Source: Halocafeteria seosinensis (lineage: Eukaryota). From it: a stretch of DNA of 64,000 bases. A program made the position numbers and the translations under genes. Positions 1 to 64,000 of this stretch are shown piece after piece. Every line of letters starts with the position of its first letter. Position 1 is the first letter of the stretch. The notes beneath the pieces were generated by a model, which saw only the letters and a program-made list of their open reading frames with translations, did not search any database and was not told the DNA's origin. The stretch spans positions 1 through 64,000 of the forward strand of contig LVLI01000388.1 in the NCBI GenBank assembly GCA_001687465.1, given 5' to 3'.

Positions 1-291
1 AAATAGAAGTGTAGAGTGTTTTTGGCATGCTTCCGATGGTCGGGGTTTCGTACGCTGAACCTGAATCTGCAAATGAGTCTCCTTCCAAAGTTTCCGGATA
101 TCCATTGCTTTGAAACTTTGATGAAGTAGAATCACAGACAGTCTGCACAAAAGTTAGACGTTCACTGAAAACCAGTCCTACTGGAAATTCTGACATGTAG
201 TACTTACCACGTGAGCGTCTCGAAACCACGTCATTTGAAGCATTACAAAAGTCTCTGCACTTCGTATTTCCAAGGTACGCTGGATCACAGC

Positions 292-1416: not shown

Positions 1417-2560
1417 CTTGATATCAAGTGAATTGTTGGTGGTGCTTTTCGAGAGAAAATCTAGCGTGTTTGCGCGAAAATCCTGCGGAACGGATCTTTG
1501 GATTCACCCGACAGTGGTGTTGCAGACGATACGCGGTTGTGCCGCTCATATTCGATCACGTACCTTGTTTACTTTAGTTTTTGCTTTGCAGCGGTGTACA
1601 CGTACAGTGGACTGTGTGAGACAATTCTCAAACAATCCCAGCCGAAATCATAATAATATCTTACTACAACCGGAGTATCCATTAACCGGTTGAAGCGGAA
1701 GAAATGTCGTGGCCCGCTCGTGGAGCTGGCAGGCTGGTGGCAGCCGCTGGCTTTTTCGCGCCACTTTTGGCTCCAACGAGGGCAGGCTGCATGAACTACA
1801 CGAAAAGCAATGCACCTCAGTAAGCCATTGAACTATGCTAACTGAAACCATCGTTGGCTCAGGAGCACCGGTGCGCATGAGAGGGGGTGAAGGGATCCGG
1901 TGCGGACGGGGGGACGGCCGCAGGTGAACAGTGAATGGACTGCCTATTGTATACTGCTCGAGCTGTCCAAAGCATCTTCTTTTCGTTCATATAGGGGTGA
2001 CTACATGCATATTAAGCTGTCCTTTAGAACAGGGTTGGCTCAGTAACCGACGAGTGTTGTTCAACTTTGGTTTGGCGTTGGCGGCTTGTTTACACAGGAT
2101 AGGAGCCATGGTATACTGTTGTACAACCAGATTGATAGTGTAAAATTGGTGTACAGTAAACTGAGTAAAAAGAAACCTCAACACCGGTGACTTCGCGAGC
2201 ACGCTGAAGACTACGCACACCGAATGTAGCACATAAGGATACGCGTGAAATGGCCGAAATATCGACTTCCTTCAAAAGCTAGCGTTCCTCGTGTACACAT
2301 TCCACGCAAACATCCCTCAGGTATTTACACCACACACATGTCTCACAATCTGCTACTACTACGTGGTGAGGGACCTCTACGTTCTGGACAGTTGGGCCAA
2401 GAAAACAACATTCATTTGGTAACATGTGAGCATGTCCTTCTTGATTCCGAGAAGTCCGTGCGTCTCGCAGGATCTGGGTCTTGTCTTCAGCTCAATGAGT
2501 GAAGCAGCGCAATGGATGAAGGCATTCTCGTAGACTGGGGGAAGGAGGTCAGTGTCTTAC

Positions 2561-4033: not shown

Positions 4034-4632
4034 TCCCCGGATGATCCCATTCCGAACTACTCTTTCATTCACGATACAGACATTCAACAAGTATAGGCAT
4101 GCCACATGCTATAAAGGTCGTCAAAAAGTTGAATCCTAAAAAAACAACTTCAACGAGACAAACATATCGTCTACTTTCTTGAACATTCTACTTGATGATC
4201 AACAGCATTGAAAACGCGATTTGTAGACAAGTCTATTTGTCTCGAAGAAAGGATTATCTGGATTGGCTTGCTGTTTGTTGCTTGCTTGTCAAAGGCGGTC
4301 TAGGTTGATCAAGACGCTTCCATTCTATGGCCATGTTGCAAAGGAATGTACGTAGTTTCGATATACACAGCGTTCCAGTGGCGGCACCATGGATGGTTGC
4401 GTTAAAATTGTTTTTGGACCCATACATGTTTTTCTCCACCATTGAGATCGAGTACAAGAACCATATGTCGGTACTTTCGTATTACCAAGGATGCACGAGA
4501 CCAACAAAAAGGGCCAAGTACATGTTGAAGGGGGAGAATAGGGGACAGCAAAAGCATGTGGGTCAGGGGCCTGTAGGGGAGGAACCACGTCTGTCATTAT
4601 TACGGATAGAATTCACTCTTATATGTGCGTGT

Positions 4633-21268: not shown

Positions 21269-24200
21269 ATGAATGGGAATTCGGGTTCCACGAGGCAAAT
21301 ACAGCCTACACACCATGTGTCCGGTGATCCTTCAACGAATTCCTTCTGGCTGGAGCGTGCCAACCTCATGCGAGCCTTCCCACCGCCCTTGCCGCATCGG
21401 GGGGAATCGCTCCAAGGACCTGGATTTTCCAACTGGATCATACAGAACCACGCATTAGTAGGTAGGTGCTGAAATGAGTTTCCACGAGTTTTGCCTTTTT
21501 TCAAACGAGACTGGTGCGATCGTTTGAAAAAAATTAATGATGCCACACTGCGGTCTCTTTATGTGCAGGTCAAAACCCAGCCGTTGGTGGAAATTGTCAG
21601 ACCTTCGTTACCAATTTAGACAAGCTGTTTTCCGCCGGCGTCACTACGATAGTCTGTCTCCAATATGAAATGAGTATATCCCACGATGTTTCCAAAGCTC
21701 TTGTAAAGACAACCGAGGCGGCATTAGCCCAGCAAGTGTCGAGGAGTAGCGGAGAGCTCCAGGCAGTAGTCAATGTCCAGCCGTACTTTGATCGAGCTGA
21801 AGTGATGGTTCAAACTGGAAGATACCCCCAGTTTGATAAAAATTACAGATTCCAAGTTCTGCATTTTCCTATGATGCCTAATGAACTCGGTATTTCCAGT
21901 GATAGCGAGGTCATGGAGTGGATTTATGAACTATTGTCTCACATCAGAGCAGGGGAGCTACTCTTTATCCACTGCTCCGACGGGAATGGAAGGACCGGAA
22001 TCATAGCCGCCATTTTACTGGGATGTATTTATGATATGTCATCTGCGGAAGCATTGGACGCTGTCCAGCGCAGTCGCGATTGTCGCCATGGAGCGAAAGG
22101 CATCAGTCCCGAACTCCATGACCAAAAGCTACAGGTACACCGGATACTTAGCAATCGGGAGTTCAGGAGAAAAGCGGCCGCAGTACAGCCACAGGACACA
22201 AAGCTTAAGATCCTGGGTTCATATGACGGCGCAAGCACTGCTATCACGAGACTGAGGCACCAGCTTTCGCAGAAAGGGGTTGCCAGTTTTCTCATCCTTC
22301 AGAGGCTACTGAAGGCTGAAGAGTTGGATGAATCGAAGCGCCTACTTACGAAGAATGTCCTATCATCGGGATTGGCCGATTTTGGATTTTATATTTCTGG
22401 AGAAGAGTTTAACTCCTTATGGGAAAAATTGTCGACCACCAAAGAGAATCAGCGATATGTGGACTCCCGCTCTCTGTGCAATGAGATCAGGAAACCCTTG
22501 AATAATACACGTACTGATGCTGTCAAAGCGGCGTTCCAGCTTATGGATGTGGATATGGACGGATTTGTGGATCTAAGCGATATAGCCAACATCTTTGATG
22601 CTTCAGGACATCCAGATGTGCGAAGCAACCGCAGGAGTGAACAACAAGTCCTCGCAGAATTTCTCGATACCTTTCCGGGAGCAAGGTCCTCCCTAACGAC
22701 AGTATCTGGAAGTAAGGGATTGCGACTTGCGAGTAACGTCTCGTTCTCCAGACATGTAGATTATCGGAGTTTTTGTGACTACTACACGGACCTCTCGACT
22801 GCTATCGAAGACGATAACTATTTCACGATGATGCTCTGGAATTGTTGGCCAGTTAGGGGTAGAAAAAGTCATCCGGATGAGTCCCTGTTGCGTGCACGGA
22901 TTTTAACCCAGGCCCGGGCTCAAGTAAAGTACGATGAAGAAACAACCGCAGAAAGCTTAATTAATGCCATCAAGGCTTTATTGGTGGAACAGGATCCATT
23001 GCTCGCACCAGGATACATTGCGGAGCTAGAACGGCTGGATGGCGACGGAGATGGACACGTCACACCATTTGAGTTTGTTCGCGCTACCCGAAACTGTGGT
23101 ATCCGTGAAGATAAGTATTCTGAAGGTGCATTGATGCGGCTCTTCCAAAAACTACTCCAAGAGGGCAAAGATCACACCGCTTCACAAACTCTCTCGCTGG
23201 AGAAAGTACGGGATGCCATCAAGCGGCCACTAAATGAAAGCAGGCGTCGATGTGTCATTGCAGCATTCGAGATGCTTTTATCCCAAACCAATGGTGCCGG
23301 TTTGAGCTCGTATTCCTCCAGGAATCTTATTCCTCTGGAAGTCATTATGGGAGAATTTCAAACTAGTGGTCATCCCGACGTTGTATCGCAGCACAAAGCG
23401 GAACAGTTCGTCCGTGATATATTTGTACGCTCTATTAAAGCTCCATCGATCGGAAATGTCATCAATTTCCCTAAGTTTCAATTATTTCATGAATTAATCT
23501 CAGGATGCCTGTCAGACGACGCTTACTTCTGCTCGTTGATATGGGGTGTGTGGGGAGTTGGCCACTCCACCAGGTACAAAAATGCTTTACAGAACAAGTA
23601 TCAACATGGACGAAGCCCGTCAAGGTCACAAGCGACCTCGGAGCCATCTCACGTTGAGCAGGCTAATTCGAACGCAGAAAATTTCTCATTCGAAAACTTA
23701 GCTACGCAGCAGGAACATGCCAACGACATAGAATCGTATGCTGCAGGAACGCGTGCATCCACCCACTATTGTAGCCGAGGAGGGTATGGGGTTGGTCCGG
23801 CCACGCTAGCAGGCGTTTCGGTTTCTCCAAACCGATCAGACCTCTGTTGGCAACACGAGCACGAGAAATCTCATGAGGCTTTTCTCCAGGGGCAGGAAGT
23901 GACGACTCTCCCCGGGAACCATCCAAGTAGGCCCCCAATGGCCCCTGGTAAAACCGTTAACTCAGCGGAAGACTCGTTCAGTTTCGACTCACTGCAGCGG
24001 AGGCTTCATGAGGAATACGCAGGCCAGCCAAAGGACAGAACAGGGGTAGATGACCCCTTCAGTCCTTACCGTCAAATACGTAGGAACACTGGCTTTAGGG
24101 GGAACCAGAGTAATAAGTATCAAGGAACACCTTGGAATTCCAGTGACCATATGTCGGAACTCTTGAATTCTTCGAAGTCAATTTCTACGATCCCTCCTAA

Positions 24201-25683
24201 TGCAGACCTAGAAAGTATTTTTGAGACGTTATGCACTACCCTGATCAGTCATGAAAGAGGCCGAGGTCTCGTGTCGCTCTTCGCCTTTGACAATTTCATG
24301 CGTCAAAAAGGCGAGATCATGCCGGAGGCACAGTTGAAGATGTGTTTACAGGAATTCGGTGTACCACTACCACCTGGAGTGTTTCAGAAGATTGTCAACG
24401 CATGTGCAGTCACTCGCGGGACACAAGAAGTCCATATCGATACCTTCTTAGATCGGTTATGCTTTAACTGGAGCAGCAATCGAGAACAATTTGTACAACA
24501 ATCCTGGACCAAACTGCAGAAAGCATACGTGCAAACACACACACGAGGGACTACGAGGAGGGAAGATTTGATTGTGCCTGCTGATACGAAAATTCCTTGG
24601 GACTACTTATTATCTTCTCTTGACCCTAAGCATCACCCTGATGTCGTACACGGGACCCGCTCTGAAGAGGAGATTGTCGAGGAATTTAGGCAAACGTTCC
24701 CTAACGGGCTCAGTGGTCGTTCGTCGAATGGTTTAGTCAGTTGGGAAGAATTTAGCTGGTACTGCCGAAGGTTCTCTACGCTGTTTGAAAAGGACGTAGA
24801 CTTTACATTTGTTATCTGGAACTTGTGGCATCTTCAGAATGTTGAGACAGAAGACTGGAGGAATCGAAATGATTCGCAAACAAGCTCTGCCAACAAAGGA
24901 TTAAGAGAACAGTATCGTGGACGGACCAGAACTCCACATACTGGCGAAAATAAAGCAAAAGGCTTGAAGGGATGGGGAGTGGAGACAATCGGTTGGGATA
25001 CCCGGCTGTCAGGGGTAGGGGTGCCACAACAGCACCAACAACATGTTCGTTCTCGGAAAGATATTACGCCAGATCAGGTGGTTAATCGTTTGAGAAACTC
25101 GTTAAGCTCTCATGGCGAATTCGGTGTATTGAAATTGTGGACAGGCTTTCATAGTCGAGATTTCGGATTTTCTACAAACGAGCGCCGACCTATGGGACTA
25201 ATTACCAGACAAGAGTTAAAAACCACAACCGCAGAGTTTAGTCTTGGAATAAGCGACTTCGAACTAGATAAACTGCACAATCAGTTTGGAGGCCCACACG
25301 ACTTTGAACACAATATCTCTCAGCATCTTTTCCAATACATCAATCTAATGACAGCAATCTTAGGCTCAGTATCATCCCGGCGGGAGAACTTGATTCAGCA
25401 GGCCTGGAATAAGATCAGTGGCGGTGCTCCACAATGTCCTATTTCATTGATTTGCCAAAAACTAAGCATGAAGCAGTACCCGCAAGTACTGCGCGGTTCG
25501 CTAACTGAAGGGGCTGCAAGAGAATATGTCCTCCACCCTCTCCGTGCGCTTTCCGGAGCAGCAGATGACTCGGCATCCGTCCCCTTCAGTCTGTTCCGCA
25601 TGATTCACTTGGCGATAAGCTTAAATGCAGCTGATGACGCTTCCTTCCAATGGCTTATGTGGAACATGTACCTGTCGAAATAA
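21269..25683 (+). CDS. Cys-based (PTP/DSP-type) phosphatase fused to four calcyphosine-like EF-hand modules
   Basis: HCSDGNGRTG (CX5R); EF loops DVDMDGFVD and DGDGDGHVT; repeated HPDV...F...W blocks; intron 21462-21568 joins the ATG 21269 exon in frame. Confidence 0.85.
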
Positions 25684-32088: not shown

Positions 32089-35000
32089 ATGCCAACGCCA
32101 AGTATTTATCGGGCAGGAATTTCTCCTGACCAGCTTCTAGTACTGATGTCTATAAGTGTTGGAGTTTTCACGGGGCTGGTTCACTGTTTTGAGCTTAGAG
32201 ATCCAAATGATCCGGGACCAGAGCCGACGTTTGAACCCTACGCTGCAGGATTTACGGCCAAATCAGATGATGCTACTCCAGAACCTGTTCCCGTGATAAA
32301 TCCTGGAAACGAATTCTCATCCAATAGTCAGCCCAACATATTCAAGGGTCCTCTTCCTCGACGTAAGTTAGTCTATTGAGAAACTAAATTTGCGTTTCAC
32401 CGTCACTGGACGACACTTTGACCCTTGCAGAACGTTGCCCTGGTATGATAAAGAACGAAAGCAGCTATTTTTGTACATCTGTAGAAGCCGGATACTGCGA
32501 CCGTAGGACGGGAACATGCTATTGCTTCGAAGGGTATACCGGAGTTGACTGTTCCAAGTGCGCAAACACTCACGTCCGCTTGGATGGAGGCGAGTGCCTA
32601 CAGAAGGTACAATGTCCTAATGACTGTTCAGGTGGGGGCGCATGCAATTACACGACAGGAATTTGTAACTGTGAGAAAGAGCGTCGTGGAGACGATTGTT
32701 CCATACCTGTGTGCCTGAGTTTCGATGAGTTCTGCGTAGAATGTGATACTCAAGTTTGTATCAAATGTATCCCCGGCTTCTTTGTTACGCCTTTGAGTCA
32801 GTGTGGTACGTGCGACGGCTACCGAAGTGTGTCTTTGCAAGCTTACTTAAGAAATCAAAAATGCTTTCTACAGTACCATGCTCCGTATATGACCCTCGCT
32901 GCGATGACTGTGACAGGGATAAATGCCTTGGATGTAATGACTACATACTCAACTCTGTTCTCAGGAGTGGCCGCAGGAAATCAGATAGTCCTCCCCCGTT
33001 TGATGAGTTCAACAGATTGTTCTCCGTCAAACGAAGGTTTGGAACTCAGTCCCCTTATGCCTTTTCAACTGCGGAGCCATACCACTTAATCGACGACAAC
33101 AGAGGGCTAAGAATGGCCGGCTATCAGCAGTCCTCCAGCAACTACAGAAAAAGCTCCCGATACCGTTTCACCACTGGAACAGATATTTACCTAATGCATC
33201 ATCCTGATCCTCCAACTGCGTTCAGTCAAGAGGAATATGATGTATTTTTCCAGAGATTGAACAGAAAGCGAGGTTTTAACTTGGACGGTACGGTACCGCT
33301 TGGTGCGTACGACACTGACGAGGCCGCGTCTCTAGCCCAGGCGAAAATGTTTGAGTTCGATTCCCAAGAAGAAGCTTTTGGCCTTTGGTTTCATAACAGC
33401 AGCAAATTTTATGCGGGCATGCCACTATTGAACGAAATGTCTGTTGCTTGCTCGCAAGGACTAGATAATAGCCCAGTATGGGTATGCAAGCCGAAGCAGG
33501 AGTCACACAAAATATGTGGTAGCCTCGGTACATTAGAATGGAGAAGCCCTTCTTACGCTGTATTGGAGAATCAGCCCTTCTTGCGGGTGGCTGTTGACCG
33601 AACCGGAGGAGGACTGGGACGAATATCGTTCCGGTACGATTTAATCCATCAGTCCACCGATCCTTCAGATGTGACAGCAAAAGCAAATTATGAGAGTTCA
33701 CAAACACTGGTGATGGAGGAGGGCATAGTACAACTGTCGTTTCTTATAACAATACATGACGACGTTGATGTCGAAAGCAATGAAACTTTCTTGCTCCAAT
33801 TGAGGGATGTGCGGGGTGGTGCCAGTGTAGGGGCTCAGCAGAAGACGAGGGTAACTATCATAGATGATGATAAAGATAAGTTGAGCCCGCTACAAACAAC
33901 GCTTGAAAGGGTGTTTCTTCCTGTTGACAAGTCTGCCTCGCGGAACTCACCCTTGATTTCTTCCACTCAATCAGGGTTATTAGAGGTGTCAGCTGGGCTG
34001 CCAGTTCTGCTTTCTCTTAAGACGCTAGACTCCAAGGGGTTCCCCGTAATGGAAGCTGCAGGGTCTGTTAGTTTTGAGCCCGTCTTTAGCGACGGAGGCG
34101 AACAACTGGCAAGTTATAACTTCTTAGTGGAAATCGAAGACGAATTCTCTTCAGAGTTTTCTACACAACTGTACACTGCCGATGATGAAAGTGATACGGA
34201 TTCACGAGGTAAACACCGTGGTGTATATTTCGACCCAGCCGACGCGGTCTCTTCATACGCACCACCAAAGGTACGCAGGCAGTACGTATCACCTGGTAAT
34301 ACTATATGGGGGCCCTCTTTGGCCAAATACCTCGAAACTTCCGTTACAAGTTTCAATAGCTCGATAATTGGCGAAGTCGACTTATCAATGTTCAGCCTTG
34401 ACGACATCGACGGTACCACCTTGGAAGAACTAAACGACCCAAATACGTACGTGGCTATAATCTATCCCACCGTCTCCGGAACAGCCAAAGTAAGAGCCCG
34501 CTACGCAAAGGCAAATGCATTGATAGGGGAGTACTTTTTAAACCCTTTCTTGAATGGAAAGCCATTTGTGAAGAGGCACGACCAAAGGATAGATTTTAGC
34601 TGGGGGAACAGAGGTATCGCTGGACTACCATCGAGAGATTTTGTCTCTGTTAGATGGAGTGGAGCGGTTTCAATAGGAGTACCCAGTAGTCCCGCTTCGC
34701 TGGGATCAGGAAACTTGGAAACATCTGTTTTGCAATCGATCTGCTCCGATGACCCATCACGTTATCGATTCTGCGATAGATGCCAAAGCTATAATTGTTC
34801 GGGGGCTTCCTTCGGCGGCGAAACGCTTGTTCATTTCTACCTCTCAGGAGGAGAGAATGACCAGGTTCGACTATGGGTGGATAATCAATTGCTTTTAGAC
34901 GTATGGGGAAGAGAAGCTTCGTCGACCTTGGGAGTAGGAGAGCATCGCACATCTATTGTCGTAAATCAGGATGAGATTTACGCGATCATGGTCGAATATC

Positions 35001-38000
35001 GCCATTTTTCAGGCTTTGCAGGACTAACACTGCAATGGGAGTCTGCGGACAGTGGGATTAGAAAGGAAGTCATACCGCCATCCAAGTTGTTTGCGCTCTA
35101 TGAAATAAGAAACAGCCCTGCAACCCTGCAGATACTACCATCAATTTCGTATGCTAATCCTGAAGGATTCGCTGCATCGCAAGACGGCACTTTTGTTGAA
35201 GGTGATGGCTTGTTATTTGCAACAGTTGGAGAAACTGCAGATTTCAGATTGTACTCCCTAGATGCCTTTGGAAATTGGAGGAAAAATTTCTCTGAGGAAG
35301 ATCTATTTTCATCCTCTCTTACACTTCGTGAATTTCATGTCCCTGAGTACAGATCTAAGGGTATACGACCGCTCATGGATAATTTTGATACCTCTGAACT
35401 CTCTGAAGCTGTCATAAACGACACGTTGACGCTGCCCGCTTCAGTACAATATATTTCGTCCAACGATCACTTTCGGATATCGTATCTTCCACTTGTTTCG
35501 GGGATTTATGATATCGAAGTCAAACTGTTTGCCCCTAGCGATGGAAACGAGAACACGAGCATCACCGAAATACCTGTGGCTGGGTCACCATTCCGAGCGT
35601 TCGTATCTCCAGCACCTGTATCCCCTTTCCAATCGATTGTCGCTGGGCGAGGTCTAGCACATGGTGAAGCGGGAATTACCTCGACTGCGCTTATATTGGC
35701 TCGCGACCAGAATCAAAACCCGGTACCCGCACTTGACTGGTTGTTCGCCTCTTTCGAAATCGTGGCCATCCACCAAATCGAAGGACTGATAGTAATCGGT
35801 GAACAACGGCACTTGGAGGGCCCAGTGTACGAATTGAATTGGACACCGTTGAGAAGCGGATTGTATGATCTTACCATATCTTCCCAAGTAGGTGAAGTTC
35901 CGGGGAGCCCCTTCCAAGCAGCTGTGCACGCTGGACCCACTAGTGCGAGAAGTAGCTCACTAAGATTTAGTAACAACGGAACATTTGTTGCAGCCGAAGT
36001 TGGCGTCATTCATATCACTGCGAAGGACCAATGGGGTAACTTACGAATTGCCGAGTTTGGGGCCCAGGGCATTGGCAATGACAGCTTTTCCAGTGCAATT
36101 ATTACAAAAAATTGGTCGGAGGTGGACTCCCTAGGTATCGACCTCAGTGCATCAAGGGCTTTTAAAGATAGTCCACAAGTAACAAAGGACAGTAATGTTA
36201 CCCTTTTCAACGGCTTCTCCTTGGAACACCAAGGAAACGAAATGTATACTATGAAAATCGTCCCAATGTTAGTTGGCGAGTGGCCTCTGGTGGTACTATT
36301 AGACGATAGGCCTGTGGGCGAGTTGAGTCACATAATAATCGTTATTCCCGGGAAGACATGGGCCAATACGAGTTTTATCGTCCCTCCGCAAGGGATGCGG
36401 AAGCCGAATTTCGATGTGGTGCGTGCAGGGGACAGTGGAAGTTTCTTAGTGCAAATGAGGGATATAGCAGGGAACAACCAGAGCCGCACTGAAGCTCTTA
36501 AGGTTGAGACAGTAGAGGGATGGATAGAGCCTGCGCCTGGGCAACATTCATTAAACGATAGCATGAGGAATAACATTTCCTGTGCTTTAGTGAACGACGC
36601 TGGACTATTTGAGTGTCACTATAGGGCACGCCGGGCAGGACTATACGCACTACATGTTCAAATCGACAAAATGGAGGTTGCGAATTCTCCCCAAAATAAC
36701 ATAGTTATAGTCCCAGGAGATCTTAGCGCCGATTTCACTTCGGTCGAAGGTTTACTCACTACTTCTGGAGAGGAGTCTAGTAGAGCAATGAGAACGGGAC
36801 AGACCCAAGATTTACTTATCACTTCGCGAGACAGATTCGGCAATGAGATTCCGAGTGGTGGTTTAGCCAGCCGGTTCATAGTAACACTATTTGGAGTGGA
36901 AGTCGAACGAGAAGTGACTCCCTCCGGTTTAATCTTGGACGACCTGGAAAATGGTCAGTACGCAACTTCATTTACCCCGCTCGTGGCAGGTACGTACCGC
37001 CTGGGAATCGAAATAATCACTTCAGGGGGCCTTGAAGGGATCTATTTTGCTGAGCCTCTCTTTGTAGGATCCACAAGTGTGGTTTCAGAGGAGATTATCA
37101 ATTTTGATTGGGGAGTAGAACTTCCCGACTCGTTGAGTGACATCACAAATTCGGCAATATGGAGTGCAAAATGGTCTGGTTTCTTTCGCCCAAACGTATC
37201 AGAAGAGTTAGTTATGCTACTGGAAACCGAAGGGGCCGCCCGGCTACGCGTGTTTGATAAGGTTAACTCCATATCGTCGTTTCAAGCACAGGTAGCAAGT
37301 AGCGGTGGTTCCATGGAGTATTTCCTGAAACAGCAGGGGAGCAACCCTATCGTCTCAATAGACTTATGGACGGACTTCTTTAGTTCGAACGCGAATATAT
37401 CGAGCACGAAAGAGGCAATAGCATTCCAAAGGGGAAATGTGGTAGCAGGAGGATTCTACCCGGTGCTTCTTGAGTTTCAGCGAGATATTATGGCATCTAT
37501 ACCGGCGAAACTCCGCTTTAGATATCTGACAGTCGACATGGTAGATCCCACGGAGTTACTGGGAGAAATTACAGTGACCAACAAGACGGTAGACCGACTT
37601 GCACGCCCAGTACCAGATGAACTGCTTTTCCCTTCGAAGTTTGTTGAACGACTGAGTGGCTCCCCCTTTTTTCCAGTGGCTGCCGCGAATCGAACAAGCC
37701 CCGAAAACTCCAGAGTCACTGGAGATGGCCGACGTTTCGCCACTGCTGGCATCATCTCAACATTCAAAGTTTCTCTCAAAGACAAGTGGGATAACCCTGT
37801 GCAAAGCGAAGAGGCCATCGAGGCCGGTGCAGCTGCTGTGGCTGTGCGGATAGCATCTTTGGACGAAATCCGCGACAGCCCGGGTGAAATTATCGTTGAG
37901 GTAGACGACTCCTATATAGGAGGAGCGCAGCATCTACTGAGTTACACTCCGACTGTACCCGGCCATTACTTACTCTATGTATTCACAGGGACTAACGTTA

Positions 38001-39607
38001 CTATCGAGGGTGATCTCCCTGCCACGCTTGATTATCTAAACCCCTACGGCGTTTTCGGCTCCCCTTTCGCCCTGAGAGTTGATGAGAATGTTCAGGATGC
38101 CAATTCTTCCATAGCGTTTGGAGACGCTACCAAGCGAGCCGTTGCGGGACAGATCAGTACATTCTTTATACAAACAATAGATACCTTCGGAAACAATAGA
38201 TCTTCGCCACAGACTGGAGGAATATCAGGGTATCTTGAACGGAAAGCAGGACTCTCCCAATCTGACGTATCTCCAGAACCTCCCGTACCATTTGTGGTAG
38301 AGTTCAGTACAGAATACGAGGGGAACGGTATCTACAGAGCCACATACGAAACAAAAGTTGCCGGCATATATTCTCTGATAATGCGCATTGGAGTCAAAGA
38401 CATTCATATCAACGATGATCTCATTATAGTTGACGAAGTTGCCGCGGCGCAGGAGAGCGTCATAGACCGAAGCGCACGCTCGCAAACATTGACAGTGGGC
38501 ACTCCTAATGTTTTTAAAGTAAATTTAAGGGACAGGTTCGGCAACCCTTTGACAAGGGTCGGGGATAAATTGATAGCGCGGGCCCGTGGACCTGGAGGAG
38601 GAGAAACTACGTACATTCTTAACGTTACAGATGCTCTGGACCCGCACAATCCACCTGTAGCACCGGTCGAGCGTTGGTGGGAAAGCGGGAATACCCACCC
38701 TAAGCATGACTTGAGTACCCTAATAAGAGAAAATCCAGCAGGCACTGGTACGAGTAGCGGCAGCGGAAGAATCTTCATCGCCCGCAGTGAGGAATGGTCA
38801 CGAAGATACGTTGGGTTTTGGCCAGACTCGCCAGGGCTGTATGAAATCGATATAAGTCTGGCAACAGGCATCGGAACCGGAGAAAAGCATAACACTCTCA
38901 CACGGGGCCTGCTAGGAGAGTACTTTCCAAACCTGTTATGGACAGGAAATCCCGCCGTGACGAGAGTCGACACAGCTTCAATTTTTGGGTGGGCAGCCGG
39001 AGATGTAGTCACAGCAGAAGCATTTCATTTTTCCCCTGAATTCCGTCGTGCAACCATAAACGGTACAAATATGGTTGGAGAAACTGTAGGAGCAAGGGCG
39101 AGGGAGATGTTCAGTCTTCTGGAAAGTGTCAATCGTACTACAGCTCACTTTCCGCACCCAAGGCACACGTCAGGACAGGATTTTGGCGATCAAGGAGCGA
39201 GCGGACCGTTTTTCCAGTTTGCTGACAAAAGACTGTCAATAAGATGGACCGGTTACATCGAGGCACCAGCGACAGCTTTGTACAGCTTTTTGGTCAACGC
39301 CCGGACCCGATTAAGGTTGTCAGTAGAGGAAGAAATTGTTATTGACACGTGGAACTGTAACAAGTCGGTAGCCGCCGGTCAATACTCTCAGGCTCTGCGA
39401 AAAGGGCAACTCTACAAACTTAGAATTGAGTACCAGTTCGAGAGTGGGCCATTTGCTCTCAGCGTAGCTTGGTCCTGGAAGGGTGACATCGATGCAGACT
39501 CAAGAGGTTTCCTACCTCTGGATAATGCGTTTTTGTTTCCGTTCTCAGTCCCAATTGCTGGTAGCCCACTCAGGATGACAGCAGCAACTAACTCCACCGG
39601 GCTCTAG
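32089..39607 (+). CDS. Giant secreted protein: EGF-like/Cys-rich, Calx-beta, three PA14-like domains, many filamin-type Ig repeats
   Basis: Hydrophobic N-terminus; CYCFEGYTGVDC, CPNDCSGGGAC; IHDDVDVESNETF; three GLxGxYF...SxxW(S/T)G blocks; repeated DxxGN and GSPF; introns 32363-32430 and 32806-32873. Confidence 0.88.
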
Positions 39608-54036: not shown

Positions 54037-56301
54037 TCACACTTGTTGACCACTTACGCATAACATGCCTCGGGCCTTGGTATTTGGGTTGCCACCTGCA
54101 CGTGGTAAAGGGGGAAGGGCATTGCCGCAACGTGTGTTTCCAGAGGCTTCTGAAAAATTGGGGTTCTTGCGGGGAGGGGCAGTTCGTTGCGGGGGAATCA
54201 CCGACGTTATCTGACTCGAACTCGAGGAGATAATACCCTGTATTGCTGACTCTGCGCTGTTTTCATCCAAAGCTGCTCGTGATGGTTGTTTTGGTTGCAC
54301 TCTTCTTGGAGGTAACTGTCTTGATGTCGCGGGGATCTGTCGTGAGACCGTACCAGCCATGGTAGTAGAATTACCGCGGACAGTCATCAAACTAGGTAGA
54401 GTCTCCGGAGACTGCGTAGTATAGTCCTCCTTTTTGGACTTCCACTTCTGTGCTTGCGTTCGTCGAGTGAAACAATTTCTTTGTTGCTTCTCTTTAATTT
54501 GCTCCTTGGGTGCTGATAATGGTTTGGCACTTGGACGATGAGCATGGACGTGCTCTTCGTGAGATCCAACTATGGAAGCTCCCCGAATGTCTAGTGATAC
54601 GTCACTATGCTCTGTATTGGGTCGGTCAAAACTTGTACAATTCTCTTTATCAGAACCATTAGGAGAACTCGGTGACGAATTTGCCTTCTTCCGCCCTGCG
54701 ATCCCAGGCACCGAAATTTAAGCAGGAACTATCCTAACCAAAACGTGGCTGGCACGTGCACATACCGACAACGTTGGTGTTTAAGATCAATCCAGGCAGT
54801 ATTACTTTGTGTTGACAACTAAGGGCGGGACATCTGTAATGTTTTCCCCGGAAATGATCTTCTAGACAATTCTGCGGATAAAAGAAAAAAAAAAAGCTAA
54901 TCGACTGGAAGAAACTTGCCCAGAAGGACGAAAATAGTAGCTTACCTTATGGATAAGGTGATAACACGGCAGCACACAACAGCCGGAATCATCCGTCACC
55001 AATAGTCGTACATTCATACCACAATGAACGCATGTCTGTTCGTCAAACCGCGTTGTGGCAGTCTTGAGTCTCGTTCCATCTTTCCGGCTCCACTGTTGGA
55101 TACAGTTAGAAAGATATTGAAACAGCTCAGGAGATGAATTGATTCGATCCAGCTCCAAGAGTCTTTCGTAATCTTCATGGGTGATTTCTCTGTGCTCTAG
55201 TTCCTGTAGACTTTCGGGTAAAGGCTGCATATTGCTCGTTCCGTCACATTCTCGTGGAGCGGGGATCCAAGCACAGTTGCCGGGCCGATCTTTCCGAACT
55301 ATCGCATGGCCTTTGTGCCGACAACGATGGAAGCAACGACTGCAAAGGTCTGCTTCGTCGCATTCAATGCATCTATACCGGCATCCATATAATGGTTTTG
55401 TTCCACATTCGACACAAACAGTCCCAAAGTGCACGTTTTTGGGTTTCTTGCGGCTTTTCTCCTTGAGATCCTCTTGCAGTCTTCGAAGCACTTCGGGTGC
55501 TTCTCCCCATTCATGGCGGCAGAGCGGGCACGTAACGGCTTCATTGTGTGAATTGCGATGCTCTGCCCAAGCTTTCATGCACTTAACATGGGCATGCTTT
55601 TCACATGAATGGCAGAAGGTAAGGAACTCTTCGGGGATAATGTCAATCTGACAAATCGGGCACACTTCCTCCGGGTCCAATTTCCGAACTGGCCGAGAAC
55701 CTTTGCACACTGTCATGGGGTTTGCATCAATGTCTTCTTTTCTCTCTTTCTGATGCTGGTCACGCTCTTGCTGCTCCTGTTGTCGTTGTCTGCGTTCCTC
55801 GGCTAGGCGTTCCCGGTTGTCCGTCAAGTGTTGCAACTCCCGTTCGGAGAGAGACTGGTTCACAAGCACCGGGTCATTCTCTTCAAGCTGAAAGATGCGT
55901 ACGAGGACAAAGACAATATGCAAGCATACTCCAAACTTGGAGTTTTTACACGAACAACACTTGGACGGGGTCAATGAACTCAGAGTTACACGACTCGGTT
56001 TGTGTTCCTCTTCCGCGCGGACGACAAACGACAGAGGTCCTTGTTCCTTCAGCAGGAACAATCGGCAATTTCGCAGCTTCTCCATGACAATCTTCAGCAT
56101 CTGTTTGGGAGTCATGTCGCTCTGTTTACCTCGTTTTCGCCTCCGTATCGTGCTCGAGGTATCCACTTCACAAGCCTCATGATGACTGATTTGGTCCATT
56201 TCTGAACGGTCCGTTCCTCCTTGAGACCGCGCGCTGCCTTGGTTGCCAGGAATATCTCCATTTGAGGCACCAGTAGGGCCTCCAGAGGCAGCTGCCATCA
56301 T
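54037..56301 (-). CDS. ZSWIM2: ZSWIM2/MEX-like E3 ligase (SWIM-RING-ZZ-RING)
   Basis: LLKEQGPLSF...CSC...CLHIVFVL (SWIM); CPIC...HVKC...CPLC (RING); CVEC...YRCIEC...DLCSRC (ZZ); LEHREITHEDYERLLELD; second RING split by an intron near 54945. Confidence 0.82.
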
Positions 56302-56593
56302 GCTTGGGGGTGTATCAATCTCGTAGCATGGAGAGACCGTTAAGCTCGCAGTGCACAACTTCAACTACAGCTGATTTCGTCGTGAATGCCGCGCTCCATC
56401 AAGCCACAACCATTCTAAGACAATTATATATTTTGGTTCACATGTTTCATTCCTCCATACTAAGAAATAACTCCTTCTAAGCAGCAGAAAATAGTCCCAA
56501 GGGGAAAAGGCAACGAAAAGTTTGCACGCTTTTTGGCGGAAATAGACGATTGGAGACTCGTGGGGTTGTATATTGGCTGTTTAGGGTACAATC

Positions 56594-58926
56594 ATGGGGA
56601 GCGACAGCAGTGATGTCTCCTCCTCTCTTTTGTCTTCCTCTTCAGCCTCTTCGGGGTCTTCTTCGGAGGAAGACAAGGGAGGAAAAAGTCATCAAAGAGG
56701 GCATCGACCTCCCTCCAGAGCCGAAAAGGACTATAACGGAGGCGATTATTACACAGTTATAGCCGATTTGCGGAAGCCTTTAGGTCTCAAATGCGGGGTA
56801 CGCTGCTTGCCACTTCACTCTCTGGTGTATCTCGTGTATTCACGGCCATAGTACGACGTTTGACAGATGACGCCACGACCCCAATATGGACGCATGAAGG
56901 ATAGACAGGTGCATATCAAAGAGATAGCGCGGTCATCACAGTTTTATGGGAGGATCAAAGAGGGTGACGTACTCGTCAAAGTCGCACAGAAACTAACGTC
57001 CCCTTCCAGGGAACGGAATAGCGGAAGACGAAGGCGACGGTCCTCTCAAACCGAACCAACGGTGTGGGTGATACAGACTCTGCAGGATGCGGTGAATGTG
57101 AGTGGCATGTAGTGGTAGTTCCTGGTTGATACTCCGCGTGAAGACTTATGTACTATGTGCAGGCGTTTCAAGAAGTATATGAGGCAAAAACTCGAAAGCA
57201 TCCGTTTGCAGTATTATATTTGTTCCCGATGACCAACGATTCAAATCCTCGTTGTGAACCAATGCATTCCCAGGAATCTTCCGACAATTCCAGCACGAAG
57301 TTTAACGATGAATTCTACTGGGAGAATTCTCGTAGTACAGAGGCCCTTCACTGCTCCGTGAAGGAGCGAACCACTCTCACTCAGTTACAGATCTACAAGG
57401 AGAAGCTTCGCGCCGTAGCAGATTCATGGAAGCAATTAATCAGTACGAGCGAGGTGGTGGCGTCTTCGTCAGAAGGAAAGGGCGACCGAGGAAACTACCA
57501 TGGATTTCCATGGACGTCTGCAAACGCGGCTTTAAAGAGAGAGATGTTAAACGAATATCAGCGAAGGAAGGCGATCCGATGCTATGGAGAAGCTCAAGCA
57601 CTTTACGAGCGTGTCGAGGAGCAAGAGAATGAGGTGAATAAGCACATTGCTCAACAGGGAAAATACAGAAAGCATGGCTTCGCAGTCTCAAGGGAGGGTT
57701 TGTTGGACGTTATAACGCGAGACAAACTGCAGCAATTGGGTTTATCCGTGACCAAAGTGCAGCAAGATCTGACTCAGTTTTTGGACACCCTACAAAGTAA
57801 TGATGGAATCGCGAACGGATCTACTCTAGAGAACGGAGAGATTAATTCAGATCACGCTAGGGGCGCCCACAAGGTAAATTCAACCTGGGAGCATTCTAAG
57901 TATCGAGGTGTTGGACATCGACATACGGAGACAGCTAAAAGGAGCAGGACTTCTAGTTACGACGAACGTATCAGCATGGCAGAACTTGAGGGATGGGCAG
58001 ACGTAAGTCCAGAAGATAGTCAATTCGACAGCGAGAATGCAAGCGTCTTTTCTTCTGAGAATGAGGAACAACACGAGAAGACGAGCAAAGAGCTGACTGG
58101 CTCAAGAAAGAAAATGACTTTAAACTGCCGGGAATCACGCAAAGAAGCACATAAACTGCCTTCAGATATACCTTCGCAGACGGCATATTCTAAGGATGTT
58201 CAAACCGCGGTCACTCCAGAGCACCGACAATCCCTTAACCACTCAGGCTCCTCTCTACAGCGTAACTCAGATCTGAAGTTGCGCCGTGGCTATAGAAACG
58301 GAATTTACACCCAGTTGAAGTCTACACCTCCACCGGCTTCTCGACTGCCCGATACGTGTCGTAAGCAGGACAAACCGCGGAAGGTCCCACAACCGGGACA
58401 AGGGTTAGAAGGCGAACGGAATACTTATATAGACGGTAATTCTAACGAAAGTGTGAACGATAAACTGAAGAGGGTTGATGATGTCCCTGAAGCACAATTA
58501 TGGCATCCCAAATCCGTGGCATCGTTTGGAGTAGCATCGGCCCAGAAGGCTTCAGCTGCAGCAGTTAGAGTAGCTCTGCACGGTGCATCCGTACTCAATT
58601 CCGATGCGGCTATGCAAGATACGATGGGTCGCGATTTTAGTTCGCTTGACATTGATAACAAGGAAAGGACAGTGTTGAAGGAGGAAGATAATTTGAGCAA
58701 CGACGGAAGCACCTTTGTTCAGCAGCTATCACTTGAGGATTTGGCAGCTAGTCCCCACCTCGAGGTGAAAGACATCGCTCGAAAGGTCCGAGATCGCCTT
58801 CAACACTCTCCCACTGACAGGAAGTCTCGAGACACTGATATGGAAAAGAGTGATACCATGACTTCCACGAATACTTGTGGAACCGGAAAAACCCATCCGC
58901 GGATAGCTGCCATCTTTGGGTCGTAG
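56594..58926 (+). CDS. Hypothetical protein with PDZ-like N-terminus and disordered tail
   Basis: KPLGLKC...VHIKEIARSSQFYGRIKEGDVLVKV across introns; 592-aa final ORF. Confidence 0.6.
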
Positions 58927-59043
58927 TCCTTCAAGTCAGCATCCCTTTGGAATTTTTCCCACATTCAGCCCCCCGTTTCCAGTAACATGCTGGTGGAACC
59001 GGAAAAACCCATCTGCGGATAGCGGCCATCTTTGGGTCGTGGT
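58877..59043 (+). repeat. 51-bp direct repeat (58877-58927 and 58993-59043), 3 mismatches
   Basis: gtggaaccggaaaaacccatc(c/t)gcggatagc(t/g)gccatctttgggtcgt(a/g)gt. Confidence 0.9.
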
Positions 59044-59094
59044 AATGCTAGTAATGTACAACGATGCCGTATATTCCTCGTACTCATACTCTAT

Positions 59095-62000
59095 TTAAAC
59101 GAACTCTTCCTCCATATGTTCGTCATGATTACTATCCCTGTAGGGGCGATCATTCAATCTCTGCGAGACCCTTCGCGCAACTCGTTCACCTTCTCGTAAC
59201 AGTTCTGCGATTGACCAGTCGTCCTCGGATATGTAACTGTCCTCATCGGAAGGAGGGGCCGACTCGCTCCATCCATATCCCGGAAGAAACTTGTCTGGTT
59301 GTTCATCCTCTCCCATGCTCAACCTAACGTCACCAGGAACGTCATCTGTTTCAACGCCTATTTCAGCGACATTGCGGCTGTACGTTGCTGGGCCATTTTC
59401 TCCGGCGGATTTACCCGCCCTTAAGGCTCTTTCCTCGGCAGCAAGCTCATCCAATTCCTCAGGACCAGCATAGCTGTCAGAATCATCTTCATCGCTCTCA
59501 AGCCAATTCGCATCCCAGTGCGACATTTCATGGGGTGCTTCCTGCTCGTCTTCAATACTCAATCTACTATCTGGTCTCGCTTCGTCAATTTCAAGCCGGG
59601 GAACAGCATCTCGTCTGTCGATATTCTTTCTCTTCGCTCTTATTAGCTTATGTCTCTCCCAAAGACAACGCGTACGACACCACCAAGCAAAGTAATTTGT
59701 CCATACGGACTTAACTGTATGCTCTAAGCGATACAGCATCGCACCAATAAAACGCATTCCAAAAATCAAAACGGTTAGACCGACAATGATCCAGGTGCCC
59801 CATTGGAAGACGTCATTCAGATTCACCATAGAAGCTACCATCCTGCAATGATTATCCAAGTGAGGAAGGGCAATATTAGAAGAAAGCAAGTACCTCCTCT
59901 TACCAGTTGGTGAGTAGCCAAAAGCTAAGGACCCGGGTGCGAAAGGCTGCGAATTCAGACGAGACTGTCTCGTTCTCCTCTCGCAACTTCTTTTCCCGTC
60001 TGTAAAAGGATCGCGCAATAAATGAGATGTTACGAAAAGTCTCAACCAGACACTGCCATACTTACTCCTTTATTTTACGTTCGACAGCCTCTTGCTGGGC
60101 GGCGACATACGCATCGTCGAGCATTTTCTGGGGGTCTTGAGGAGCTGAGTCCGTCCGTCCCCTTCTTGCCACACTGGACCTTTCATTCTCATTCTCACCC
60201 TCTTCGTTTCTATTGTCGCCTGTCGCAGGGTTATCATCAGCATAAAATTGTGCGTGCTGTAACTCCCGAATCCTCCCTTCCACCTCTTCTAAGATTTCGG
60301 ACGCCCGTTTTCTCGGTTCACCTCCAACTTTAACGTCCATATTTCTCTTTATATCTCGTCGGGCTTGAAGCAGTAAGGCGTGCAAGTTTCCTTCTTGAAG
60401 CCGGTGGCTGATGTCGTTAAGATTGCAGAAGCTGTAGACTAGGAACAGATTGATATACGTTGGAAACATGAACGTATACTGCATGAAAGTGAAGGTCATT
60501 GCAAAAAAACTGCTGTTGACAACCGCAGCAACTATCAGCATACCAAGAGCTGAAGCCAAGCCCCACACGAAAATTGGATTGAATGCCTCTTCTGCTGCTG
60601 ACAGCAGGAAGAGTGCAAGCGCCACGTACATAAATGCACCATATATCAGAGAAGAGACAAGATACACACGTTCAACGTCTTCCGCCCGAGAGGCAAGCGC
60701 AAATACAACCTGAAGGGCCAACGTTATCAGGTACACCAGGTGGAACCCAAATGTTATGATATCGGTTCCAAATCCTAATCCCGCTACGGCAGTCGTAAAG
60801 ATGTAGAACATGGTCACGTACATCAGGGAAGGAGCAAACCATATGTAGAGAACATAGAACACGTGCATCAGCGATTGCACGCTCAATGCACATTTCCGGA
60901 AGAATGAGTGAGCGCTCCGCTGCCATAGAGCCTTCGCTCTCGAAAGGAAGTAAAAATAACCGAAAAAAGTACCACTGAGATAGCGGCGTCGAGATATAAG
61001 CAAGGGAACGAGTCCATTTGCTAGTTCTTGCTCCACGACCGCCCCTGCGGCATAATGAGTGGTCCAATTACTCTTGGACTTTGTAAGAACCTCGTAGGCT
61101 ATGATACGGTCAACGGTAAGATATAAATTGGATAGGAAGGGTCCCAGCTTGTGCAGCCCCTCTTCCTCCACCTTAAAATATTGGTTCAGGGGCTCTCCTC
61201 TGATTGCCTCCCATCGGTATACTGTGAAACTGTTGCTAAATGGGACGACAAAGCCGGCAAACGAGTCAGCTTGTTTTTGCAATACATGTGACAACTTGTG
61301 TTCAAAAGTTTGGCTCGCTTCAGAGAAATTGTAAAGCCGCGCTGAGTAGGGACGAACTTCGCCCGCAGCTAGTCCAACCTGCGGATTGAGCTCCATGCTT
61401 TCGTACAGGTACCTAAACGCACCAGAAGTTGGGTATACACCTGGTGAGACTACAGTGATATACTTCGGCCTTATTTGACGAGCAAATCCACTAAATGACC
61501 ACAAGTGCGAGTTTAGGACACCTCCAGTTTTTTCCTTAACCGAGACGATCATTTGGAGTGGTAGATAATATTCGCGTTGCGTTATGTGACGAGCAATTTC
61601 GACCGTTCGCTCAAATATATGGCATGTTACTTCCATCCCCTTATGAATGCTCAATAGCATTTCAGGGTCCCAGATCTGTAGGTCGTGTCGCAGGTACTTG
61701 AGCACATCCTTGGGGATGCTGTTCCTTCCGTCAATTACTAGATTCACTACCGCTTGTTCCCATCGAACACCGGCCCGGTGTAATTCAGACAAATTCTCTG
61801 CTATACTCGCCAGCGTCCTGAAAGTAATATATCCGCAATGAAAAGCCGAAGCAATTGACATAACCAACGGATGCGCTTACCTCTTCAAATGCTCCAGTGG
61901 TTCGTTATAATACGCCACACAGATAAAAAGCTCTATGTTCCGTCGCTGTCTCGTTATCCGCAGCAAAGTGCCTAAATTGCGGGGACGGCGGTTGATAGCC

Positions 62001-64000
62001 GGTGTATAGTCCAGTACTTTCATCTCTTCGATGTCTTGTTCATGACTTAACTCTGATGTACTAAATTTCCGTCTGAGAAAGCTTGGTCCTCGGTTGTGCC
62101 TATATCTATGAGCTTCACTAGTGGCAGTTTCACCACTCTGCAAAGACTCGGTTTCCGTTTTGTTGTCTTCTGATTCATCATCTTCTTCCTTTCCGGGAGC
62201 TTGCAAGTTTGTATCAGCATTCCCTTCCTCGACAGGTGGTTCATGCGGAGCTCCTTGAAAGGCTTCGTCTTCGCGTGCGTTACGATCGACATTAGCTTTA
62301 GTCTCTCCATCGTCATTTGTTCCTTCCGCCTCCGGATATTCGTTTCTAACTTTTTTCTTTCGCCATAGTGGCCTCATATCGGAATCCAACTTAAGCTTCC
62401 GATTGTCCCCTTTGTAGGAAAGCGGTAAGTTGGCCACCTCTTCTCCATGTTCACCCTGGTTATGCTTGTCTAGCTTCTCTGCCATACCTTCCGCAAGATC
62501 TTCTCCCTCATTGAGCCATTTTTCCAAGTCTGCCGAGTTACAGCTGCGTTCAGAAGACTCAGAGGCTCGTGATGAGTGTGGATACGCTTGCGGATCGGTA
62601 CTATGTTGCCCTGAAGGGGCATGTTCGTGTGGGACACGACCATTTCGCTGAGTACCAATTTGTTCGTTGTTTGGTATTGCTGGTTTCCGAGATATTGCAT
62701 CTGAATTGTGGACGGGAGTACCGGATGACCCTGGCTTATTCGTTTCAAGAATGCTCTTTCGATGCCCTGTAGTTTCTTCCCGTGTATCCTCGTCCCATCC
62801 AACGATTTTGGAAAAGCGCTTGCCGATTGCTTCCTGGTCATTGTCCGCACCCCCTTTCTGTTGAATTAGTCCGTAACCGGTGTAGTTATCGTAATCATCA
62901 GGACCCCAGTTCCGTTCTTCTTCGAGGTCTTCGGCATTTACTTCTGACTCGATAGTGGAAGACTCCATATCATGTACCTGGCCTTGAATACGACCGAGAT
63001 GACGTGCGTCCCTAACCTTCTTCTTCCGTTTCAGCAACTTCGTTATCTTGTGCCTATGCCAGCAACACCGACAACAGCACCACCAGTGAAATGCGGAGTC
63101 CCATAAAGACTTTAGGGGGTCTTCAACCCTGAACCATAGAGCCCCTCCTAATCGGTACGCCATCTGGAACACAATCGCTCCAGTGATGAACCAGCCAAAG
63201 AGCGCGACAAGATCAAAACCCAGAACTAGCGCGGCAAATGCCCTGCAACAAAAGGCTTCCAACTGTATAAACCAAAACAGCATAAAAGCACTGTCACACA
63301 TACCCATTACTAAATGCCCAGAGAGACACAAGCCGAGTCCTAAACGCAACAAATGTATTCTTGAGCTCTGCTTCTTCTTGGCGCATCTTCTCGCGTTTCC
63401 TGCACTCGAGTGTATGACCTGTTACTCGCACGAGGAGCGGCACATTGGCTAACACATACTCTTCAATTTGCCTCGCAAAACGCTCCTGTTCAACTCTCTC
63501 CACTTCCATATACATCTCATGGTGTACTGAACCCTGCTGGACTGCTGCGCCTACTTCTCCTTCGTATGCCTTCTTTTGCTTGTCGACATTCCGCACAACT
63601 TTTTCCAGATTCCGTATTCGTTTTAGTGTTTGATGATGAGCGGAGGCAAGCTCTTTGTCCCCGAGATCTTCTTTGTTAAACATGTTAACATCCGCACCTT
63701 TGTCCTGGATGTTATAGTGAGCTGCATCTCAAGTTTAGTAGTGTTAAGAAACAGATGGACACAGGCACAGAAATGTGGCCAGCGTACCTGCGGCGAGCTG
63801 CTGTCGGAGATTTCCCTCCCTGCAATAGCATCGTATAACGAAGGATGAAGGACTGTTGTAAGGCTCTAATGCACTAGCAATGTGTTCGAGTGCCTACTTT
63901 GTTCCCCATGACACATCGTGGAGATTCGTTAACGAATAGATTGTGAACATGTTCAGAAATGTCGGAAAAACGAACAAGTACTGTAAAACCAAATTGAGCG
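59095..64000 (-). CDS. CHS: Chitin synthase gene (5'-partial) with two tandem CHS modules, the second degenerate
   Basis: Module 1 end: [36 protein letters not shown]; module 2: [48 protein letters not shown] introns keep one frame throughout. Confidence 0.88.

What the first reader, a model, noticed from the sequence alone, without database searches (positions are those of the whole stretch)
59095..63980. Single-chain tandem chitin synthase: canonical-looking module fused to a motif-degenerate pseudo-synthase
Seen: the exon at 63980-63898 encodes [28 protein letters not shown], an intact CHS C-terminal motif. Splicing at GT-AG sites continues with no stop through [19 protein letters not shown] helices, WWCCCRCCW and a long hydrophilic linker into a whole second CHS module ending in the paralogous [26 protein letters not shown]. 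Module 2 has altered motifs: DxGT to SPGV, VLPGA to VPFSNS, EDR to VDR, TD to QE, QRRRW to SRRRY, SWG to SHR. Established: these motifs bind substrate, catalyse and gate in fungal and oomycete CHS, and solved CHS structures are dimers. Inference: a covalently linked active/inactive pseudo-heterodimer in which module 2 is structural or regulatory. The catalytic core of module 1 lies outside the window.
Basis: partly seen in the sequence, partly recalled or inferred. Interest (0 to 1): 0.88.

Follow-up and report, generated by a model that had tools for sequence, protein, structure and literature searches.

The report
Chitin synthase fused to silent twin
A protist gene encodes two chitin synthases joined end to end in one spliced reading frame; the second has lost several catalytic and gating residues yet is conserved across relatives, so it likely serves as a built-in, non-catalytic partner of the first.

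Summary
The fusion is real. Eight minus-strand exons (63980-59095) give 1,476 codons without a stop: the tail of one chitin synthase (CHS), a 325-residue linker, then a whole second CHS. Two complete transcript-derived relatives (P0001, P0173) have the same layout, with module 1 intact at 12 of 12 sites tested in Phytophthora Chs1. Module 2 is changed at 5-9 of these sites in 6 of 6 copies (7 in the window). Module-2 copies form one clade (100/100) with three subfamilies and tip lengths like module 1, and are predicted to keep the full CHS fold. TM2 and the TM2-3 loop, part of the known dimer face, are better conserved than in module 1. Best reading: a single-chain active/pseudo dimer that makes one chain (0.5). 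Not shown: the window gene's own module-1 core, the pairing, and inactivity. None of the listings from ten searches of open papers showed such a protein. A new variant of division-1 CHS.

The parts
63898..63980 (-). Exon: end of interface helix IF3 and intact SWG loop of module 1. The gene continues upstream beyond the window.
   Evidence: 30 loose-end letters in 3 runs continue the frame and resemble the IF3 helix of P0001 (read by hand)
63788..63819 (-). 32-nt micro-exon (EGNL)
   Evidence: joints on both sides
63460..63721 (-). Exon: cytosolic loop before TM5 of module 1
63400..63459 (-).
   Evidence: (skipped in 3 of 3 spliced runs); matches a 20-residue gap against P0001
63304..63399 (-). 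Exon: long TM5 of module 1 (FRTR)
61881..63242 (-). Junction exon: TM6 and Cys-rich stretch of module 1, ~325-residue hydrophilic linker with conserved islands (YxGYG, GWDE), and N-terminal SFLRR..DYTP..YYNE part of module 2
   Evidence: no hydrophobic segment in the linker
60066..61817 (-). Main exon of module 2: GT-A core with altered motifs (SPGV, QTFEH, VPFSNS, VDR, QE, SRRRY), TM1-4, IF3, SHR loop
   Evidence: Pfam Chitin_synth_1 E 7e-24; PsChs1 E 1e-73; AlphaFold pLDDT 87, pTM 0.80; Foldseek TM 0.76 to 7WJO; motif table
59904..59999 (-). Exon: TM5 of module 2 (FRTR)
59095..59842 (-). Last exon: TM6, Cys-rich stretch and acidic tail of module 2; TAA stop at 59097-59095

Best explanation
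The gene encodes one polypeptide with two division-1 chitin synthase modules in tandem, a likely active module 1 and a likely non-catalytic module 2, which would fold into the two halves of the usual CHS dimer so that each dimer would make one chitin chain instead of two. Shown: fusion, splicing, motif states, conservation, one origin of module 2. Predicted: the fold. Inferred: a whole-gene duplication, then a burst of change that removed acceptor, gate and SWG residues, then renewed constraint. Six transmembrane helices put module 1's C-end in the cytosol, where module 2's GT domain begins. Module 2 would supply the TM2/TM2-3 loop and TM5 contacts that a partner protomer normally gives, stabilising, trafficking or tuning module 1.
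For: One spliced frame across both modules. Two complete relatives with 2 Chitin_synth_1 domains each. At 12 sites whose Ala mutation abolished or impaired PsChs1 (PMC9556331, sections 7-8), P0173 module 1 matches P0001 module 1 at all 12, each the canonical residue. Module 2 differs at 7 (window), 9, 5, 8, 9 of 12 and 6 of 11; V452, P454, E495 and W539 equivalents are lost in 6 of 6. Of 94 near-invariant CHS columns, 44 are kept in all module-2 rows, 19 lost in all, 31 partly. Module 2 is one clade, 100/100, stem 0.79, tips 0.13-0.33 against 0.21-0.56 for module 1. Separate duplication in the P0001 lineage is rejected, p-AU 0.0004. 4 of 4 allelic differences in the module-2 core are synonymous (p~0.005 at an assumed neutral share of 0.27). 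The model of P0173 module 2 has pLDDT 88 with a 63-residue TM5 and matches PsChs1 at Z 40.9, rmsd 2.1 A over 582 residues. In PsChs1, TM2 and the TM2-3 loop contact the partner's TM5 (PMC9556331, section 9). These elements are 21-23/31 and 6-7/8 identical among module-2 pairs, against 15/33 and 4/8 for the module-1 pair. TM4, TM6 and, in two of three pairs, IF2 are less conserved in module 2.
Against: The window gene's own module-1 core was not seen, and no module-1 core is tied to its subfamily (window + P0020). Module 2 keeps D291 and L359 equivalents in 6 of 6 and D496 in 4 of 6, so some binding or chemistry may remain. Enrichment of loss at tested sites is significant in 2 of 3 full copies only (Fisher p 0.04, 0.006, 0.31). 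The interface comparison rests on a single module-1 pair and on helix limits set by hand, and it cannot tell pairing within a chain from pairing between chains. PsChs1 protomers work independently (Hill 1), and deleting its swap subdomain impaired the dimer but had little effect on activity (PMC9556331, section 9). A partner is therefore not needed for catalysis there.
Confidence: 0.5

Rival explanations
1. Array organiser: each module pairs with its like on another chain (1 with 1', 2 with 2'), so the tandem proteins link into rows or rings. Inactive dimers would space active dimers and shape fibril assembly.
For: The linker is 325-369 residues and hydrophilic, long enough for either geometry. 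Module 2 keeps both TM2 and the membrane part of TM5 well conserved. Solved CHSs are homodimers, and oligomers are thought to align chains (PMC12653383, passages).
Against: Covalent tethering should favour pairing within a chain (inference). Modules 1 and 2 have diverged differently at TM2 and TM6, which suits an asymmetric pair (weak).
Confidence: 0.2
2. Sensor: module 2 still binds UDP-GlcNAc or UDP in its nucleotide pocket and switches module 1 on or off, as pseudokinase domains do (analogy recalled).
For: DGR aspartate, the K of KE..LNSH, the L359 equivalent and the R of EDR are kept in all covered module-2 rows. The window copy also keeps YNE.
Against: The uridine-binding T237-E241 loop of PsChs1 (PMC9556331, section 10 passage) is lost in 2 of the 3 copies that cover it. 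D382 is lost in 4 of 6, including the window. PsChs1 shows no cooperativity.
Confidence: 0.12
3. Module 2 is a changed enzyme (primer maker, chain modifier or other glycosyltransferase) that works in series with module 1.
For: The catalytic-base aspartate is kept in 4 of 6 and changed only to E in 2. The new gate loop (PF/PY followed by S/T) and 20 module-2-specific invariant residues are conserved.
Against: D382, W539 and W742 equivalents, whose loss abolished or greatly impaired PsChs1, vary freely among copies. An enzyme would be expected to fix its new active site.
Confidence: 0.1
4. Polyprotein or read-through: one message, but the linker is cut (or shorter messages dominate), so the modules act as separate subunits.
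For: The linker is acidic and likely disordered. Contigs cannot show molecule ends and also bridge a convergent gene. Stand-alone degenerate CHSs exist in relatives (P0051, P0030). Yeast Chs1/2 need proteolysis (PMC12653383, passage).
Against: The open junction is kept in 3 of 3 genes whose junction is in hand (33-35% linker identity). Only one contig was laid per spliced run.
Confidence: 0.07
5. Module 2 is a decaying duplicate.
For: Long stem branch; many motif losses.
Against: No stop or frameshift in any module-2 stretch in hand; 44-53% identity across three subfamilies; synonymous-only alleles; structural residues kept.
Confidence: 0.01

Closest known systems
Phytophthora sojae Chs1 (PDB 7WJM and related; division-1 CHS)
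   Same: GT-A core, IF1-3, TM1-6 with long TM5; module 2 E 1e-73 by sequence, Z 40.9 by predicted fold; all nine motifs recognisable in module 1 of P0001/P0173.
   Different: PsChs1 is one module per chain and a homodimer of two active, independent protomers with MIT/SP subdomains. Here two modules share one chain, no MIT domain was found by Pfam, and module 2 lacks VLPGA, E of EDR, TD, Q and W of QRRRW, and SWG.
Yeast Chs1 and Candida Chs2 (class I, solved homodimers)
   Same: Same fold (Z 35-39); dimer through TM5 (PMC12653383, passages).
   Different: Single module; both protomers catalytic.
Cafeteria chitin synthase (P0002, KAA0168994.1) and single-module relatives P0022, L002
   Same: Closest single-module relatives; share the N-terminal segment before DYTP and the Cys-rich stretch after TM6.
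   Different: One module with all motifs intact.
Covalent active/pseudo pairs such as JAK JH1-JH2 or ABC transporters with one degenerate site; inactive glycosyltransferase partners such as CHPF (all recalled, not tested)
   Same: A conserved catalytically impaired copy serves an active one.
   Different: Unrelated folds or separate chains; here the unit is a whole processive membrane synthase with its own channel.

Membership tests
Division-1 chitin synthase (GT2), module 1 | TMYNE, DGR, KE..LxSH, DxGT, QxFEY, VLPGA, EDR, TD, QRRRW motifs | tested here: inconclusive
   Met in the complete relatives P0001 and P0173; this part of the window's own gene lies outside the window and was not seen.
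Division-1 chitin synthase (GT2), module 1 | SWG loop, long TM5 and TM6 | tested here: met
   Window 63911-63059; 48-49% identical to the module-1 tails of P0001/P0173.
Division-1 chitin synthase (GT2), module 2 | Chitin_synth_1 domain and CHS fold with IF helices and six TM helices | tested here: met
   Pfam E 7e-24; models and fold searches (full six-helix model from relative P0173).
Division-1 chitin synthase (GT2), module 2 | D,D,D,QxxRW processive-GT signature | tested here: not met
   Window: first and third D kept, second D to S, Q to S, W to Y.
Division-1 chitin synthase (GT2), module 2 | VLPGA gate loop and SWG loop | tested here: not met
   V452 and P454 equivalents lost in 6 of 6; SWG glycine lost in 6 of 6 covered rows.
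Division-1 chitin synthase (GT2) | One catalytic module per chain | tested here: not met
   Two modules in the window product, P0001/P0005 and P0173; 3 of 173 stored proteins (165 with a core, 30 of at least 1,200 aa) have two.
Division-1 chitin synthase (GT2) | Makes chitin from UDP-GlcNAc; forms a TM5-mediated dimer | not testable with these tools
   Needs assay and structure.
Pseudoenzyme (module 2) | Homologous fold, catalytic residues lost, maintained by selection | tested here: met
Pseudoenzyme (module 2) | No measurable catalysis | not testable with these tools
   Inferred from PsChs1 mutants only (PMC9556331, sections 7-8).

The most novel reading that the evidence does not exclude
A lineage of protists, likely flagellates, has built a family of single-chain pseudo-dimeric chitin synthases, at least three subfamilies, in which a dedicated silent protomer halves the output to one chain per dimer or regulates the active half. 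It is a natural experiment on why processive polysaccharide synthases dimerise and how chain number sets fibril form.
Probability: 0.5. Interest if true: 0.82.

Novelty: new variant of a known kind. Interest (0 to 1): 0.74.

Why it matters
All solved chitin synthases are homodimers of two independent active protomers, and why they dimerise is open (folding, trafficking, or aligning chains into fibrils). A natural one-chain active/silent pair separates the structural role of the partner from its catalytic role and lets each half be mutated alone, which a homodimer does not allow. It predicts a different polymer product (single chains or thinner fibrils). It also marks which CHS residues serve catalysis and which serve the fold. 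And it points to an unexpectedly elaborate chitin system in protists where chitin's role is barely known: CHS rises in stationary phase in a marine heterotrophic flagellate (PMC7852580, passages).

Tried and rejected
No genome is held, so the gene could not be extended past 64000. No run was listed as RNA; RNA nature was judged from splicing only. The first metagenome scan found no relative (66 pattern matches, 0 confirmed). The second gave 2 of 221, single-module canonical genes in the DNA held (L001 is cut short). A whole-length search with P0173 returned nothing and missed the known positive P0001, so it is uninformative. The complex prediction of P0173 module 2 with module 1's membrane part gave 'no answer' (0.05; alignments not used): no evidence either way. 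A putative repeated helix motif in the tails was no better than shuffles (3.3 vs 2.9 bits) and was dropped. Sisterhood of modules 1 and 2 is in the best tree but weak (79/71). Grouping module 2 with the stand-alone degenerate P0051 is not rejected (p-AU 0.059), so internal duplication versus fusion of an older pseudo-enzyme is unresolved. My first splice script had acceptors off by one, corrected. The ESM Atlas gave only ordinary CHS clusters. Two look-ups of earlier scan findings were empty. A splicing control on neighbouring genes is missing, apart from one + strand intron at 57097-57163 seen.
Full report
Observation. Six GT-AG introns of 61-78 nt join them into 1,496 codons without a stop. 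The decisive piece is one 1,362-nt exon (63242-61881) that runs from TM6 of a first chitin synthase (CHS) through a hydrophilic linker into the first motif of a second CHS. Four public runs hold the stretch. Laid on 57000-64000, X1 keeps the introns. X2, X3 and X4 (2 samples, 1 study; not on record as RNA) each give one contig that skips all six introns and a seventh in-frame intron at 63459-63400. The corrected product is 1,476 aa. X3's contig has 2,843 nt more upstream, room for the 825 codons that P0001 has there, and the 30 loose letters shown continue the frame. The same contigs also enter the convergent neighbour gene, so contigs alone do not prove one molecule; the unbroken frame on one strand is the stronger argument.

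Relatives. A search among longer proteins gave 4 hits among 7,989 scored candidates. The best is P0001, a complete 2,326-aa transcriptome ORF, 39% identical over 1,552 columns including the linker. A cluster look-up revealed a second complete tandem paralogue from the same transcriptome, P0173, 2,177 aa. Pfam finds two Chitin_synth_1 domains in each. Of 173 stored proteins (165 with a CHS core, 30 of at least 1,200 aa), only P0001, its variant P0005 and P0173 have two modules. Exon-sized module-2 pieces come from environmental contigs: P0020 (67%), P0021 (46%), P0023 (52%), P0025, P0071. P0052, an intact module-1 N-terminal piece, shares the longest-contig length 16,476 with P0021, which suggests, but does not show, a further tandem gene. 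The HMMER search of 1.84 billion representatives found 1,442 proteins at E<=0.001, of which I examined the best 150. Whether P0001/P0173 are orthologues or paralogues of the window gene is not known.

Motifs. In PsChs1 (PMC9556331; I read sections 6-9 and passages, not supplements), D291A, D382A, D496A and W742A abolish activity, E495A removes about 95%, L359A about 70%, and E432, Y433, V452, P454, R536 and W539 mutants are greatly impaired. At these 12 sites module 1 of P0001 and P0173 is canonical throughout. Module 2 differs at 7 of 12 in the window and at 9, 5, 8, 9 of 12 and 6 of 11 in the others. V452, P454, E495 and W539 are lost in 6 of 6. D291 and L359 are kept in 6 of 6, D496 in 4 of 6. 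Of 94 columns near-invariant in 20 canonical rows, 44 are kept in all module-2 rows, 19 lost in all and 31 partly; 20 columns are newly invariant in module 2. Enrichment of loss at tested sites is significant in two of three full copies.

Selection and origin. In a careful tree of 26 rows (chosen by me from the hits) and a quick tree of 43, module 2 is one clade (100/100) on a 0.79 stem. It has three subfamilies (window+P0020; P0001+P0021; P0173+P0023) and tip branches of 0.13-0.33, like module 1's 0.21-0.56. Pairing P0001's two modules is rejected (p-AU 0.0004), so in that lineage the tandem predates the paralogues. Modules 1 and 2 are sisters only weakly (79/71), and an origin from a stand-alone degenerate CHS such as P0051 is not rejected (p 0.059). 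A linker block recurs after module 2 of P0173 (35 bits, shuffles at most 7.9), which fits duplication of a whole gene with its tail. Of 9 allelic substitutions in the coding frame, 7 are synonymous, including 4 of 4 in the module-2 core. Both modules fall in a 100/100 clade with Cafeteria CHS, against an outgroup of four more distant CHS rows; direct sisterhood with Cafeteria is weak. The host is likely a stramenopile, an inference from this one gene.

Structure. AlphaFold models give pLDDT 87 for the window's main module-2 exon and 88 for P0173 module 2, with a 63-residue TM5. These match PsChs1 at TM 0.76 and Z 40.9, rmsd 2.1 A over 582 residues. With six TM helices the linker and module 2's GT domain are both cytosolic (inference from PsChs1 topology). 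In PsChs1, TM2 and the TM2-3 loop contact the partner's TM5. These are more conserved among module-2 copies (21-23/31; 6-7/8) than between the two module-1 copies (15/33; 4/8). TM4 (7-8/21 vs 13/21) and TM6 (5-10/31 vs 21/31) are less conserved. That TM4 and TM6 line the channel is recalled, not checked. The pattern fits a protomer that keeps its dimer face and lets its channel drift, but it rests on one module-1 pair and hand-set helix limits.

Mechanism. Best reading (0.5): the chain folds into a pseudo-dimer; module 1 makes and exports chitin; module 2 fills the partner position and stabilises, traffics or tunes it, giving one chain per dimer. Rivals: like-with-like pairing into arrays (0.2), nucleotide sensor (0.12), new enzyme (0.1), cleaved polyprotein (0.07), decay (0.01). 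Against the best reading, PsChs1 protomers are independent, and loss of its swap subdomain impaired the dimer but barely changed activity (PMC9556331, section 9).

What is known. Solved CHSs are homodimers of single-module chains (PMC9556331; PMC12653383, passages: 'heterodimer' 0, 'tandem' 0 occurrences). A family-wide survey (PMC5122149, passages) mentions a duplicated QXXXY motif class but, in the passages for 'tandem', 'fusion' and 'duplicat', no two-module protein. The six Saprolegnia CHSs all keep D,D,D,QXXRW (PMC6923183, passages). Hyphochytrium has division-1 CHS (PMC5795050, passages). None of the listings from the ten searches of open papers showed a tandem or pseudo-CHS (two searches were aimed at background papers). 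The 15 hits all matched 'double chitin synthase' once; I saw listings only, and their titles concern fungi or chitin. Subscription papers, including the oomycete CHS survey of Klinter et al. 2019 (seen only as a citation), and all supplements were not seen, so a passing mention may exist.

Verdict. Real, likely expressed as one spliced frame, conserved; a new variant of division-1 CHS with a likely pseudo-enzyme half. Interest 0.74.

Noticed in passing
window 58871-58936 and 58987-59052: 66-nt direct repeat (86% identical, 116 nt apart) between the convergent 3' ends of the + strand gene 57142-58926 and the CHS gene; spliced contigs run through both genes.
   Followed up: partly
window 62786: 12-nt in-frame insertion allele in the linker, at the conserved GWDE island, in 2 of 4 runs.
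   Followed up: no
P0051/P0172 and P0030: Stand-alone CHS-like proteins with degenerate motifs, one from the same transcriptome as the tandem proteins; possible pseudo-subunits acting in trans.
   Followed up: partly
window 63085-63059 and 59685-59659: Cys-rich stretch right after TM6 in both modules and in single-module relatives; possible palmitoylation site (inference).
   Followed up: no
window 292-1503: Bacterial-type RNase III with dsRNA-binding domain.
   Followed up: partly
window 2561-4108: Methyltransferase (Methyltransf_24) fused to ankyrin repeats.
   Followed up: partly
window 32388-39607: Very large filamin/PA14/Calx-beta protein with a Cys-rich N-terminal part; 2,286-codon open frame.
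   Followed up: partly
window 21541-25683: Phosphatase-like (PTP-SAK) domain followed by EF-hand repeats, 1,380 codons.
   Followed up: partly
window 54862-56364: RING and ZZ zinc fingers with a SWIM-like Cys/His stretch in front, recalled as the ZSWIM2/MEKK1 layout.
   Followed up: partly
L002 ~180-3300: Single-module intact CHS sharing the SFLR..DY.P N-terminal segment with both modules; no second module seen among ORFs of 100 aa or more in the 6.8-kb contig.
   Followed up: yes
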